Shown here: positions 23,566 through 25,473 of the stretch, piece after piece
Layout: each line of letters starts with the position of its first letter
Numbering within the stretch: the stretch's first letter is position 1
Assembly (NCBI GenBank): GCA_018238155.1
Contig: JABCTZ010000025.1
Span: 32,001-96,000, forward strand
Origin: Candidatus Heimdallarchaeota archaeon
Lineage (GTDB): Archaea > Asgardarchaeota > Heimdallarchaeia > JABLTI01
Reading direction: 5' to 3'
Length of the DNA: 64,000 nt
Translations under genes and position numbers: made by a program
The notes under the pieces: model-generated
The model's input: only the letters and a program-made list of their open reading frames with translations
Databases searched by the model: none
What the model was told of the DNA's origin: nothing

Positions 23566-24105
23566 CTAGTTCTCTTCTTCACATGTTGAATACAAGAGTA
23601 ACCTGGATTCACCATCTGTTTTGTTTAAAACTAAACCATGAAACATGAAAGTATTTGATACTATTCTAGTTTCAGGACTAACTTCTTGTAATAATTTATC
23701 TTCTAATTTATTATTCGTGCTTTGTAAAAGATAACAAAATATAACATCAGCATCACTCAAATCTTGTTTGAAGAAGTCACCATAAATTATTCGTATCTTC
23801 TTTCGCAAACCTAAGATTGTTATAAGAAATTGGCACCATAAGAAACGCATTAAATCAATTTCAATACCAACAGACCGAGCACCAAATTTACGAGTAGCTA
23901 TAATTAATACTCGTCCATCACCACACCCTAAATCGTAGACCAATTCACCTGGTTGTACATTTGCTATTTCAAGCATTTGTTGAATTTTTTTCCTTTTAGT
24001 TGGTAACCAAGGTGCACCCTTAATAGTTGGAAAAGAAACAGTGAAAACAATCATGAAACCAGTAATAATGATACCCAATAGTATTAATGGTGTAATATCA
24101 GTCAT
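23566..24105 (-). CDS. Membrane-anchored SAM methyltransferase, FAM173/aKMT-like lysine methyltransferase
   Basis: N-terminal TM, GAPWLPT, YDLGCGDGR, VGIEID, ADVIFCYL, RIVSNTF. Confidence 0.8.
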   Translation of the reverse strand: MTDITPLILLGIIITGFMIVFTVSFPTIKGAPWLPTKRKKIQQMLEIANVQPGELVYDLGCGDGRVLIIATRKFGARSVGIEIDLMRFLWCQFLITILGLRKKIRIIYGDFFKQDLSDADVIFCYLLQSTNNKLEDKLLQEVSPETRIVSNTFMFHGLVLNKTDGESRLLLYSTCEEEN

Positions 24106-24384
24106 TTAAGTTCACGAAATTCTATTGTATATTTGCAATTCTTTAGCTGAAATATAAGATTTAGCAAAGGAAAATTCTTAATTATCCTTTTACATTTTTG
24201 GATACAAATCAAAATTCTTTTCCTCTATCAATATAGAAATAATTTCAATCTTATATCACAATTTTAATTCAAAATAAACACTTTCTTGTTTCAATAAAAA
24301 TTGTAGAATACTTTAAAATCTTAATTAATTTTTAGTTCTATAATGGCAAAGTCTTAGTAAATAAACAAAATGAGGTAGTCAATT

Positions 24385-25473
24385 ATGTCTTTAGATGATG
24401 ATTATTTAATTGAGCGATTTACTCTAAAAGATTCAGATATTGGTACACTTGCGAAATTATTAACAGGTGCATTTCAAGAAGATGAAGTGGCAAAAAAAGA
24501 GGGGGCTGTTGCAGATCTCCAAGATGAAAATTTCAAACTAATCTTTGGTGCTCCATCAGTAGATAAAGAAATTTTTATTCGAGCAATATATAAACCTACT
24601 AACGAAATAGTTGGATTCCTTGGATCAATTCATAAGAGCTTATCAATTGATGGTAAAATCTACAAAGTTTCCTTACCAGCTTGGTTATCTGTTCATCACG
24701 AACATAGAAGAAAAGGTTTAGCAACTTTTTTGGGGACCAAATTAGTGGAAGTAATTAGAGAAAAAGGATATGATGCAAGTGTCTTCTTTCACGATGCAAG
24801 TCAACATGGTAAAGTAGCATCAGCTGCAGTTGCTCGTAACGCAGGAATTCCAATGATAGAATTAGCAATGATGAATAAATTCATTGTAAGAGGTTATGAT
24901 GTCGATGAAGCTGCAAAAGCACTTAAAACAAACTGGATACAAAAACTCTTTTTTAAATCAAAAGAACGAATTGGTAAAGTAAAGAGCAATAAAGTTCGAC
25001 TTTACAAACCAGAAGACATTGATAAAATCTTTGAGCTCTCAACAGAACTTTCTAAGAAAAATCAAATAAGTATAATACAAGTACATGAAGATTTGAAATG
25101 GAAATTAGCTGATCCTCAAGTATTGTGTGTAGTTTATGAAGATGAAAATGGAGAAGCTAAAGGATTTATTAATGCCTGGGAGTTTCTCTTGTCAGGTTTT
25201 GGCAATAATGTCAAGTTTGGATGGTTAGATACTATCCACACATACAATCTAACAAATCAAGAAGTTAAAGATCTAGCCAATTTTCTTGGACTTGAAGCAA
25301 CTAAACGTGGTTGGAAAGGATTACAAACACCGTATATACCCTATTTTAATTCTAAACCATTTAGACAAGTCAACTTCATCTTCTTCCCAAAGAAAGTTGG
25401 TTTATATCTAGCAAATATCAATAATATTCCAATTCCAGAGAAAATTGAATCAGTGTATTTTGAATGGAGATGA
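24385..25473 (+). CDS. Tandem-GNAT acyltransferase, N-myristoyltransferase-like
   Basis: LSVHHEHRRKGLA acyl-CoA motif; second GNAT begins VRLYKPED; collinear resemblance to NMT. Confidence 0.75.
   Translation: MSLDDDYLIERFTLKDSDIGTLAKLLTGAFQEDEVAKKEGAVADLQDENFKLIFGAPSVDKEIFIRAIYKPTNEIVGFLGSIHKSLSIDGKIYKVSLPAWLSVHHEHRRKGLATFLGTKLVEVIREKGYDASVFFHDASQHGKVASAAVARNAGIPMIELAMMNKFIVRGYDVDEAAKALKTNWIQKLFFKSKERIGKVKSNKVRLYKPEDIDKIFELSTELSKKNQISIIQVHEDLKWKLADPQVLCVVYEDENGEAKGFINAWEFLLSGFGNNVKFGWLDTIHTYNLTNQEVKDLANFLGLEATKRGWKGLQTPYIPYFNSKPFRQVNFIFFPKKVGLYLANINNIPIPEKIESVYFEWR

What the first reader, a model, noticed from the sequence alone, without database searches (positions are those of the whole stretch)
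24385..25473. Candidate archaeal N-myristoyltransferase-like protein
Seen: a 362-aa double-GNAT protein. By eye it is collinear with eukaryotic NMT as I recall it: EIVGFLGSIH...WLSVHHEHRRKGLATFL versus KLVGFISAIP...FLCVHKKLRSKRVAPVL; VRLYKPEDIDKIFEL..VYEDENGEAKGFI versus LRPMETKDIPVVHQL..VVENANGEVTDFL; NSKPFRQVNF...GLYLAN versus NKTFLEKLKF...YYLYN. It also ends in a short C-terminal strand; in NMT the C-terminal carboxylate is the catalytic base. NMT is generally regarded as a eukaryotic hallmark that targets Arf GTPases and others to membranes. Inference: a possible ancestor of protein N-acylation.
Basis: partly seen in the sequence, partly recalled or inferred. Interest (0 to 1): 0.85.

Follow-up and report, generated by a model that had tools for sequence, protein, structure and literature searches.

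The report
Asgard archaeal N-myristoyltransferase-like acyltransferase
An Asgard archaeon encodes a well-conserved enzyme that is a true distant relative of the eukaryotic protein-lipidating enzyme N-myristoyltransferase and shares its unusual active-site layout, but it lacks the parts that recognise N-terminal glycine, and its substrate and its place in the origin of the eukaryotic enzyme remain open.

Summary
Window 24385-25473 (+) is an intact 362-aa tandem-GNAT gene.

The likeness to NMT is computed, not only recalled:
- Pfam NMT_N scores above its cut-off.
- All 35 PDB matches of the family profile are NMTs (best E 1.7e-12).
- The AF2 model (pLDDT 93.9) matches NMTs at Z 31-33, against 23 or less for Eis, Fem, HisAT and other tandem GNATs.
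- The last residue, R362, superposes on the catalytic C-terminus of every NMT. 85 of 87 family members end at that exact position.

It is not a canonical NMT:
- There is no Pfam NMT_C match.
- The N-terminal B'A' region is absent.
- The Gly2-pocket residues (Y180, Y192, N246, T282) are replaced.

The family occurs in 52 of 400 Asgard genomes sampled, in a few lineages. These include the cultivated Lokiarchaeum ossiferum. An Arf-rich sister family lacks it.

It is one clade of a wider prokaryotic NMT-like superfamily, and bacterial and euryarchaeal clades score closer to NMT. In a joint tree, an Asgard + eukaryote grouping is neither recovered nor rejected (p-AU 0.42).

A 2025 paper already noted "NMT-type" folds in archaea.

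Verdict: a real, uncharacterised NMT-type N-acyltransferase, with ancestry to eukaryotic NMT unproven. The scan flagged this same stretch in overlapping windows.

The parts
24372..24376 (+). Shine-Dalgarno-like GAGGT, 8 nt upstream of the start codon
   Evidence: Read directly from the sequence. Supports the ATG at 24385 as the start.
24385..25473 (+). Complete CDS of the NMT-like tandem-GNAT acyltransferase (362 aa plus TGA stop). Monocistronic, flanked by genes on the minus strand.
   Evidence: 82 homologues at 36-88% identity over full length.
24385..24894 (+). N-terminal GNAT domain (about residues 1-170), the predicted acyl-CoA-binding half
   Evidence: Pfam Acetyltransf_9 (E 8e-10) and NMT_N PF01233 (27.1 bits, cut-off 25). 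Secondary structure. HMMER alignment to P. vivax NMT.
24682..24687 (+). W100-L101, the counterpart of the NMT oxyanion-hole beta-bulge (HsNMT1 F247-L248)
   Evidence: Alignments. W in 78/87 and L in 69/87 family members. The role in NMT is described in PMC7048800.
24706..24723 (+). R108-R-K-G-L-A113, the classical GNAT motif A (pyrophosphate-binding loop), aligned to NMT R-S-K-R-L-A
   Evidence: G111 is present in 83/87 members. The assignment as motif A rests on general knowledge of GNATs.
24982..25419 (+). Second GNAT domain (about residues 200-345). Very highly conserved (G260, G271, G279, W280, G309, W310, Q314, P316, P319, Y320, F331) and the presumed acceptor-binding half.
   Evidence: Collinear with the NMT C-terminal domain, but no Pfam NMT_C hit.
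25420..25470 (+). C-terminal tail (residues 346-362) ending Y358-F-E-W361-R362. R362 is the counterpart of NMT's catalytic C-terminal residue.
   Evidence: Model residue 362 aligns to the last residue of Hs, Sc, Af, Pv, Lm and Ca NMTs, and 359 aligns to 493 in the deltaC3 structures. 85/87 members end at this column with Arg, while N-terminal leads vary from 4 to 35 aa.

Best explanation
The gene encodes an active acyl-CoA-dependent N-acyltransferase built like N-myristoyltransferase. The N-terminal GNAT half binds the acyl-CoA and polarises the thioester in a beta-bulge oxyanion hole (W100-L101). A second GNAT half, inserted before the last strand, forms the acceptor site. The polypeptide ends at a fixed position, so its terminal carboxylate (R362) reaches the catalytic centre, where in NMT it acts as the general base.

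It is a true but remote homologue of eukaryotic NMT. It belongs to an Asgard-restricted clade within a broader, uncharacterised prokaryotic NMT-like superfamily.

Because the Gly2-recognition residues and the N-terminal B'A' region are missing, it most likely acylates a specific, conserved primary amine. I favour a protein or peptide N-terminus, with a specificity and possibly an acyl length different from eukaryotic NMT.

Shown here: gene integrity, conservation, homology, fold and the register of the C-terminus. Inferred: catalysis through the C-terminal carboxylate, the nature of the acceptor and the acyl donor.
For: - Pfam NMT_N is above its cut-off in both genomic copies.
- The family profile hits only NMTs in PDB: 35 sequences, best E 1.7e-12, aligned over profile positions 17-267.
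- The AF2 model has pLDDT 93.9.
- The Foldseek top 50 are all NMT, at E about 1e-22 and TM about 0.77.
- VIA-align Z is 31-33 with rmsd 2.6-3.0 over 331-337 residues, against Z 23 or less for every other tandem GNAT.
- The C-terminal register is exact: residue 362 aligns to Hs496, Sc455, Af492, Pv410, Lm421 and Ca451, and 359 aligns to 493 in the deltaC3 structures.
- 85/87 members end at the same column with Arg, while N-termini vary. 28 positions are at least 97% conserved, many in the second domain.
- The oxyanion-bulge residues and G142 (Hs G284) are retained.
- Full-length collinearity with 20 canonical NMTs.
- The NMT mechanism is taken from PMC7048800.
Against: - No Pfam NMT_C match, even at E<=10.
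- The 'strictly conserved' NMT pocket-1 residues are replaced: Y180 to F (85/87), Y192 to F/L, N246 to S/A/C. T282 maps to Q140 by HMMER or to F134 by MAFFT.
- About 45 N-terminal core residues of NMT are absent, and a segment of about 20 residues that NMT lacks is present; it spans the helix at 142-153 in the model.
- A conserved H/E pair at residues 136-137 at the end of strand 5 could serve as a conventional GNAT base instead of the C-terminus. This is my inference.
- I had no model coordinates, so neither the acyl pocket nor the distance from the carboxylate to the thioester could be measured.
- No biochemistry exists for any member.
Confidence: 0.6

Rival explanations
1. It is a bona fide Gly-specific protein N-myristoyl (fatty acyl) transferase that lipidates Gly2 proteins such as Arf-like GTPases after Met removal. 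On this reading it is a functional orthologue and direct forerunner of eukaryotic NMT.
For: - NMT fold, oxyanion bulge and C-terminal register.
- The genome encodes about 14 strong Arf-family GTPases.
- One Arf paralogue has a Gly2 start conserved in all 5 f1 genomes checked, across 2 genera (MG[IF]L[SA][KR]LF). The start is unambiguous in four of them.
- Two FadD-like long-chain acyl-CoA ligases are present.
- Every family with the gene also has Arf.
- Asgard + eukaryote monophyly is not rejected (p-AU 0.42).
Against: - The Gly2-pocket residues are not conserved and the B'A' region is absent.
- Gly at position 2 is not enriched: 3.2-3.8% of predicted starts against 5.9% Gly overall.
- Most Arf paralogues start M-S-F.
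- The Gly2 Arf N-termini do not fit the eukaryotic NMT consensus, and that paralogue is confined to f1, while the enzyme also occurs in f3, f19 and f21.
- Arf-rich f6 (22/22) and f20 (84/135) have no member.
- Published work finds Asgard Arfs bind membranes without myristoylation and carry no predicted sites (PMC11914678).
- No acyl-CoA dehydrogenase was found in the genome.
- The ML tree does not place the family next to eukaryotes.
Confidence: 0.13
2. It acylates a small molecule or a lipid head-group amine rather than a protein, as do other tandem GNATs (HisAT/NAT16, GLYAT, MshD, Eis, the clavulanate-pathway enzyme). The NMT-like layout would then be an ancestral scaffold used for metabolite or membrane-lipid modification.
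For: - Most characterised prokaryotic tandem GNATs act on small molecules (named in PMC12219266; structures listed).
- HisAT accepts long acyl-CoAs and shares the overall layout.
- Lipid-related neighbours occur in single cases: LPG_synthase_TM next to an A5-group member, and CDP-alcohol phosphatidyltransferase directly downstream in L. ossiferum.
- The peptide-recognition residues of NMT are not conserved.
Against: - The structural and profile similarity is specifically to NMT and clearly lower to every small-molecule tandem GNAT.
- HisAT-type enzymes end right after the last strand and use a beta-hairpin Trp. This family instead has the extended NMT-type C-terminal tail.
- No biosynthetic or lipid operon is conserved across lineages.
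Confidence: 0.22
3. It is an ordinary N-acetyltransferase that uses acetyl-CoA, for example a protein N-terminal or lysine acetyltransferase, and merely retains the NMT-like tandem scaffold.
For: - A classical GNAT motif A (R-R-K-G-L-A) is kept, unlike the NMT motif.
- Pfam Acetyltransf_9 and Acetyltransf_1 score as well as or better than NMT_N.
- The GNAT helix that NMT has lost is retained.
- No beta-oxidation dehydrogenase was found.
- Most Arf paralogues start M-S-F, a typical acetylation-type N-terminus. This last point is my own inference.
Against: - Acyl length cannot be read from sequence.
- FadD-like ligases exist in the genome.
- This reading overlaps with the best explanation, which leaves the donor open.
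Confidence: 0.05

Closest known systems
Eukaryotic glycylpeptide N-tetradecanoyltransferase (NMT; EC 2.3.1.97; Pfam PF01233 + PF02799; e.g. HsNMT1 5O9S, ScNmt1p 2P6E)
   Same: - Tandem-GNAT fold, collinear over the whole length (Z 31-33).
- An aromatic-Leu beta-bulge at the oxyanion hole.
- A conserved Gly at the Hs G284 position.
- A polypeptide end superposed on the catalytic C-terminal carboxylate with exact register.
- NMT_N scores above the Pfam cut-off.
   Different: - 14-18% identity, and no NMT_C Pfam match.
- Lacks the ribosome-binding extension and about 45 residues of the core N-terminus, including the B'A' loop; the alignment starts at Hs residue 150.
- Keeps a segment of about 20 residues, spanning a helix, that NMT has lost.
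- Y180, Y192, N246 and T282 are not conserved.
- Classical motif A with Gly.
- The terminal residue is an invariant Arg preceded by Trp.
- Substrate and acyl donor are unknown.
Other prokaryotic NMT-like tandem GNATs (uncharacterised): Nitrospinota-type (A4), a euryarchaeal contig type (A5), Thermoplasmata-type (A6) and A7. Archaeal and bacterial 'NMT-type' AlphaFold models are noted in PMC12219266.
   Same: - About 345-410 aa, the same domain order and the same retained helix.
- A fixed C-terminus, Y-x-[DE]-x-[R/K/L/I/M]-COOH.
- Pfam NMT_N matches in 22/33.
- The Asgard clade groups with A6 in the ML tree at 95/86.
   Different: - The Asgard clade is a separate, tightly conserved group on a long stem of 1.7 changes per site, with its own signature (…PYIPYF…, terminal W-R).
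- A4 and A5 are more NMT-like in sequence: 74 and 70 bits against 50.5. A4 keeps the RFDYS motif, and some A2 members hit NMT_C.
Mycobacterial Eis, MAB_4324, MshD, the clavulanate-pathway tandem GNAT, HisAT/NAT16 and FemA/FemX
   Same: Two GNAT-type domains in one chain, with the N-terminal domain likely the active one, as in Eis and HisAT.
   Different: - Clearly weaker structural match: Z 23.2, 21.1, 15.3, 19.0, 15.3 and 13.5, with higher rmsd.
- None appears in the family-profile search of PDB at E<=0.01.
- HisAT-type proteins end at the last strand and use a hairpin Trp.
- Eis has a third domain. That last point is from my own knowledge.

Membership tests
Eukaryotic NMT (PF01233 + PF02799) | Tandem-GNAT fold with NMT as the best structural match over the full length | tested here: met
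   Foldseek top 50 are all NMT. VIA-align Z 31.6/29.8 against 23.2 or less for others among 48,161 representatives. Z 31-33, 331-337 residues aligned, rmsd 2.6-3.0.
Eukaryotic NMT (PF01233 + PF02799) | Pfam NMT N-terminal domain above the gathering score | tested here: met
   27.1 bits against a cut-off of 25. Six-frame genome search gives 31.6 bits here and 33 bits for the second copy.
Eukaryotic NMT (PF01233 + PF02799) | Pfam NMT C-terminal domain (PF02799) | tested here: not met
   No PF02799 match at E<=10. Canonical NMTs score 240-275 bits.
Eukaryotic NMT (PF01233 + PF02799) | Oxyanion-hole beta-bulge (Hs F247-L248 backbone amides) | tested here: met
   W100-L101 align to F-L in the HMMER and MAFFT alignments. 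Conserved in 78/87 and 69/87 members. The geometry itself was not measured.
Eukaryotic NMT (PF01233 + PF02799) | C-terminal carboxylate placed in the active site (catalytic base, Hs Q496) | tested here: met
   On a predicted model, residue 362 aligns to the last residue of six NMT species, and 359 aligns to 493 in the deltaC3 structures. 85/87 members end at this column. The catalytic role is not testable here.
Eukaryotic NMT (PF01233 + PF02799) | Strictly conserved Gly2-pocket and water-network residues Y180, Y192, N246 and T282 (PMC7048800) | tested here: not met
   Mapped to F30 (85/87 F), L45 (F/L), A99 (S/A/C/G), and Q140 (HMMER) or F134 (MAFFT).
Eukaryotic NMT (PF01233 + PF02799) | N-terminal core region with the B'A' loop (Hs about 105-149) that stabilises the closed Ab-loop | tested here: not met
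   The structural alignment starts at Hs150, Sc73 and Pv65. The FWxTQPVP… segment has no counterpart.
Eukaryotic NMT (PF01233 + PF02799) | Deep acyl pocket and specificity for myristoyl-CoA | not testable with these tools
The genome has two FadD-like ligases but no detected acyl-CoA dehydrogenase.
Eukaryotic NMT (PF01233 + PF02799) | A set of Gly2 substrate proteins (e.g. Arf) | tested here: inconclusive
   Gly2 is not enriched, on crude start calls with no control genome. One Arf paralogue has a conserved Gly2 in family f1, while most Arfs have Ser2.
Eukaryotic NMT (PF01233 + PF02799) | Phylogenetic placement as the nearest sister of eukaryotic NMTs | tested here: inconclusive
   The careful ML tree gives Asgard + A6 at 95/86, with eukaryotes attached to an unresolved hub at 36/44. 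A constrained Asgard + eukaryote tree is only 2.4 lnL worse, p-AU 0.42. Both groups sit on long branches.
Prokaryotic NMT-like tandem GNATs (uncharacterised superfamily) | About 350-aa tandem GNAT, NMT_N-type N-domain, retained GNAT helix, and a fixed C-terminus four residues after a conserved Tyr | tested here: met
   The Asgard clade is monophyletic at 100/100.
Eis / Fem / MshD / HisAT-type tandem GNATs | Best structural or profile match to these families | tested here: not met
   Z 13.5-23.2, that is 8-18 units below NMT. None appears among the 35 PDB profile hits at E<=0.01.

The most novel reading that the evidence does not exclude
Asgard archaea possess a working NMT-type enzyme that acylates, possibly fatty-acylates, the N-termini of membrane-switch proteins such as Arf-like GTPases. 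The conserved MG[IF]L..LF paralogue in this lineage is the prime candidate. If so, enzyme-catalysed N-terminal protein acylation for membrane targeting predates eukaryotes, and eukaryotic NMT descends from this archaeal lineage.
Probability: 0.12. Interest if true: 0.92.

Novelty: new variant of a known kind. Interest (0 to 1): 0.6.

Why it matters
NMT-catalysed N-myristoylation is treated as a eukaryote-specific way to put Arf GTPases and many other proteins on membranes, and its origin is unknown.

This work shows that a conserved Asgard protein family is a real homologue carrying NMT's most peculiar feature, the chain terminus used as part of the active site. It also shows what is missing: the Gly2 pocket, the B'A' region and the NMT_C signature.

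The family is present in the cultivated Ca. Lokiarchaeum ossiferum (UYP48153.1, annotated only as hypothetical). So the question 'did protein N-terminal acylation or lipidation exist before eukaryotes?' becomes directly testable by enzymology and chemical proteomics.

The work also tempers the evolutionary claim. The same scaffold exists in bacteria and other archaea, some of them closer to NMT in sequence, and the phylogeny is unresolved.

Tried and rejected
- **Homology searches for eukaryotic NMT ids.** Two profile searches with the search for homologous proteins (A3 and A8) returned only prokaryotic proteins, because candidates are chosen by shared words. I solved this instead by fishing canonical NMT ORFs from metagenome contigs with the back-translated motif E[IV]NFLCVHK.
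- **The search for related loci with A2** failed because no stretch was conserved enough.
- **Gene neighbourhoods.** 13 short loci and 21 loci of 13 kb showed no operon conserved across lineages. The one recurrent 'cluster' is a generic class-I methyltransferase domain. A Ras-family GTPase lies directly upstream in two Loki genomes, but they start MTASK and MVARA, so there is no Gly2.
- **Proteome-wide Met-Gly scan** with a home-made gene caller: Gly2 3.2-3.8%, 126 MG starts, 26 fitting the PS00008-like pattern. There was no control genome and the start calls are crude, so this is inconclusive.
- **Sequencing runs:** no RNA holder listed.
- **G015 inverted segment:** no convincing inverted repeats flank it.
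- **Complex prediction (enzyme with Arf N-terminus)** was not run. Enzyme-substrate pairs rarely pass, and a docked amphipathic helix would be ambiguous.
- **Pocket volume and the carboxylate-to-thioester distance** could not be measured, because model coordinates are not exposed.
- **Eis, Fem or lipid-acyltransferase placement** was considered and rejected on structural and profile grounds.
Full report
**1. The observation**

A GAGGT motif lies 8 nt upstream of the start. The gene stands alone on the plus strand between minus-strand genes. Upstream and divergent is a small membrane-anchored methyltransferase; downstream and convergent is a histidine kinase. The window is about 30% G+C. The genome is 4.08 Mb in 46 contigs and 90.7% complete.

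**2. Is it NMT-like? Sequence evidence**

Pfam gives generic GNAT families, and also NMT_N (PF01233) at 27.1 bits, above its 25-bit cut-off. There is no NMT_C match.

A single-sequence phmmer against PDB finds Plasmodium NMT at E 8e-5, aligned over residues 56-291, which spans both halves of the protein.

The protein has 82 close full-length relatives at 36-88% identity. Almost all are 360-365 aa, come from Heimdall-, Loki-, Thor- and Gerd-archaeal MAGs, and are annotated only as 'GNAT family N-acetyltransferase' or hypothetical. A profile of 36 of them hits 35 distinct PDB sequences at E<=0.01. Every one of those is an N-myristoyltransferase, the best at E 1.7e-12.

**3. Structure**

An AlphaFold2 model built on that alignment is confident: pLDDT 93.9, pTM 0.90.

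- Foldseek's top 50 PDB hits are all NMTs, at E about 1e-22 and TM about 0.77.
- A search against 48,161 representative chains that does not depend on Foldseek puts yeast NMT at Z 31.6 and Cryptosporidium NMT at Z 29.8.
- The next matches are MAB_4324 (23.2), Eis (21.1), the clavulanate-pathway tandem GNAT (19.0), MshD and HisAT (15.3) and FemX/FemA (13.5).

**4. The C-terminus**

In the second-look alignment, model residues 1-362 align to:

| NMT | Aligned range |
|---|---|
| HsNMT1 | 150-496 |
| AfNMT | 117-492 |
| ScNMT | 73-455 |
| PvNMT | 65-410 |
| LmNMT | 50-421 |
| CaNMT | 77-451 |

In each case the alignment runs to the enzyme's own last residue. In the two HsNMT1 deltaC3 structures, which end at 493, the alignment ends at model residue 359. 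The register is therefore exact, and R362 is the counterpart of Gln496. The carboxylate of Gln496 is the catalytic base (PMC7048800).

Independently, 85 of 87 full-length family members end at exactly this column with Arg, preceded by Trp in 83 of 87. Their N-terminal leads vary from 4 to 35 residues. A frozen chain end is what one expects if the terminus itself is functional.

More distant prokaryotic relatives also end a fixed four residues after a conserved Tyr: Y-x-[DE]-x-[R/K/L/I/M].

**5. What is not NMT-like**

PMC7048800 defines pocket 1, which holds Gly2, by Tyr180, Tyr192, Asn246, Thr282, Leu495 and the Gln496 carboxylate. The oxyanion hole is formed by Phe247 and Leu248. The H-bond network residues are described as strictly conserved. 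I mapped these through the HMMER alignment and a MAFFT alignment with 20 real NMTs, then counted them over 87 members:

| HsNMT1 residue | Asgard family |
|---|---|
| F247 / L248 | W100 / L101, kept |
| G284 | G142, invariant |
| Y180 | F (85/87) |
| Y192 | F or L |
| N246 | S, A or C |
| E244 | I, L or V |
| T282 | Q140 (HMMER) or F134 (MAFFT), not conserved either way |

Further differences:
- The first roughly 45 residues of the NMT core (FWxTQPVP…, including the B'A' loop) are absent.
- A segment of about 20 residues that NMT has lost is retained in all prokaryotic groups. In the model it spans the helix at 142-153.
- Motif A is the classical R-R-K-G-L-A.
- A conserved H/E pair at 136-137, at the end of strand 5, could act as a conventional GNAT base. 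This is my inference.

The protein is therefore NMT-type in architecture but should not be filed as a glycylpeptide N-myristoyltransferase.

**6. Distribution**

The genome has a second copy at C21:48993-50066, 363 aa and 48% identical, which also ends …FDWR. It lies next to a PA0069/Rv2578c-like radical-SAM gene and an ABC ATPase, and this synteny recurs within the genus.

Among 400 genomes sampled from the phylum, 52 have a match, concentrated in a few families: f1 11/11, f3 26/31, f19 10/14, f21 2/4. Two large families have none: f20 0/135 and f6 0/22. A broad-profile re-search of the class found only weak GNAT-core hits in f4-f7.

An exact-sequence look-up shows members in Ca. Lokiarchaeum ossiferum B-35 (UYP48153.1, 'hypothetical protein NEF87_004438') and in Ca. 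Harpocratesius repetitus.

**7. Wider family and phylogeny**

An exhaustive representative search found about 35 more distant proteins of 330-410 aa. Of the 33 scanned against Pfam, 22 hit NMT_N and 12 hit NMT_C weakly. They form several clades:
- A4 has relatives in a Nitrospinota bacterium and in Hoeflea.
- An A5 member lies beside a PGF-CTERM protein on what looks like a euryarchaeal contig.
- A6 includes a Thermoplasmata MAG.

Small profiles of these clades match solved NMTs as well as or better than the 36-sequence Asgard profile does:

| Profile | Best score vs any NMT | vs HsNMT1 |
|---|---|---|
| A4 | 73.8 bits | 63 |
| A5 | 69.9 bits | 65 |
| A6 | 52 bits | about 29 |
| A7 | 43.7 bits | about 32 |
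| A1 (Asgard) | 50.5 bits | 29.5 |

For a joint tree I recovered canonical NMT ORFs from metagenome contigs using the motif E[IV]NFLCVHK. Six that I checked score 238-275 bits on both Pfam NMT domains. The careful ML tree has 59 sequences and uses LG+C20+F+G4:
- Canonical NMTs form a 100/100 group on a branch of about 2.9 changes per site, attached to an unresolved hub (36/44).
- The Asgard clade is 100/100 on a 1.7 stem and pairs with A6 at 95/86.
- Constraining Asgard + eukaryotes costs only 2.4 lnL (p-AU 0.42; against the quick tree the constrained tree was even better).

With two long branches the data cannot decide. Asgard ancestry of NMT is neither supported nor excluded.

**8. Substrate clues**

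No neighbourhood is conserved across lineages.

Gly at position 2 is not enriched in a crude gene call: 3.2-3.8% against 5.9% Gly overall.

The genome has about 14 strong Arf-family genes. Most start M-S-F-[LI]-x-x-L-F. One paralogue starts MGILSKLFRKF. Its orthologues in five other f1 genomes, across two genera, all keep Gly2 (MGILSKLF, MGFLAKLFGK, MGFLARLFGK). In four of them the upstream stop is only 2-4 codons away, so the start is unambiguous.

This is an attractive candidate, with four caveats:
- These N-termini do not fit the eukaryotic NMT consensus.
- The paralogue is confined to f1, while the enzyme is not.
- Arf-rich f6 (22/22) and f20 (84/135) lack the enzyme.
- Published experiments found that Asgard Arfs bind membranes without myristoylation (PMC11914678; bioRxiv 2024.02.28.582541).

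On the donor side, two FadD-like ligases are present, but no acyl-CoA dehydrogenase was detected.

**9. Prior knowledge**

No paper in the library links NMT to Asgard archaea.

[quoted passage not shown] It reported such NMT-type structures in archaea and bacteria. Its list includes a Thorarchaeota protein and a Euryarchaeota protein, with no biochemistry and an explicit caution about function. I could not verify whether that Thorarchaeota entry belongs to this family.

So the existence of prokaryotic NMT-type folds is known. New here are the Asgard clade, its exact C-terminal register, its missing Gly2 pocket, its distribution and its unresolved relation to NMT.

**10. Verdict**

This is a real, strongly conserved, uncharacterised NMT-type tandem-GNAT N-acyltransferase. 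Homology and architecture are well supported. Catalysis through the C-terminal carboxylate is plausible. The acceptor and the acyl donor are unknown. The 'ancestor of eukaryotic N-myristoylation' reading is possible but unproven.

Noticed in passing
G000:C21:48993-50066 (-) = L001:760-1851: A second copy of the NMT-like gene in the same genome: 363 aa, 48% identical, ending …VYFDWR. It lies between a PA0069/Rv2578c-like radical-SAM gene and an ABC ATPase. This arrangement recurs in 5-6 genomes of the genus, and some genomes there carry 3-5 copies, including a tandem pair (G081:C78).
   Followed up: partly
G000:C17:62400-62915 (-) = L158:138-722; orthologues L174-L178: An Arf-family GTPase paralogue with a Gly2 N-terminus (MG[IF]L[SA][KR]LF…) conserved in family f1 across two genera. 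Most other Arf paralogues in f1, f3 and f6 start M-S-F. It resembles eukaryotic Arf N-termini but does not fit the NMT substrate consensus.
   Followed up: partly
L035 (G015:C1:1011617-1012690) and G016:C1:1138313-1141232: In two closed genomes of the same class the NMT-like gene is disrupted. In G016 it is split by about 1.8 kb. In G015 a middle piece of about 234 bp (residues about 64-141) reads on the opposite strand. No clear flanking inverted repeats were found.
   Followed up: partly
L020 (Ca. Lokiarchaeum ossiferum, G137:C1:5192909-5206000): A Ras-family small GTPase, the NMT-like gene and a CDP-alcohol phosphatidyltransferase lie head to tail on one strand. The GTPase neighbour recurs in L022. 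Neither GTPase has Gly2.
   Followed up: partly
window 23566-24105 (-): A 179-aa class-I methyltransferase with an N-terminal hydrophobic segment, divergent from the NMT-like gene. It weakly matches archaeal protein-lysine N-methyltransferase (NF041081, 96 bits against a cut-off of 200). It is shared as a neighbour only with the closest relative, L004.
   Followed up: partly
L018:5001-7621: A distant NMT-like gene of the A5 group (P0115) lies directly upstream of an LPG_synthase_TM (MprF-type membrane domain) gene, near a PGF-CTERM protein. This could hint at a lipid-related role for that clade.
   Followed up: no
whole genome G000: No acyl-CoA dehydrogenase (PF00441) was detected in the 90.7%-complete genome, yet two FadD-like long-chain acyl-CoA ligases are present (C20:56124-57314 and C15:450408-451598).
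   Followed up: partly
G023:C68:46998-47576, G032:C134:20777-21355, G038:C95:38495-39070: A further, more distant tandem-GNAT-like ORF of 370-426 aa in family f3 matches the first about 210 positions of the broad NMT-like profile at E 1e-13 to 1e-15. It was not characterised.
   Followed up: no
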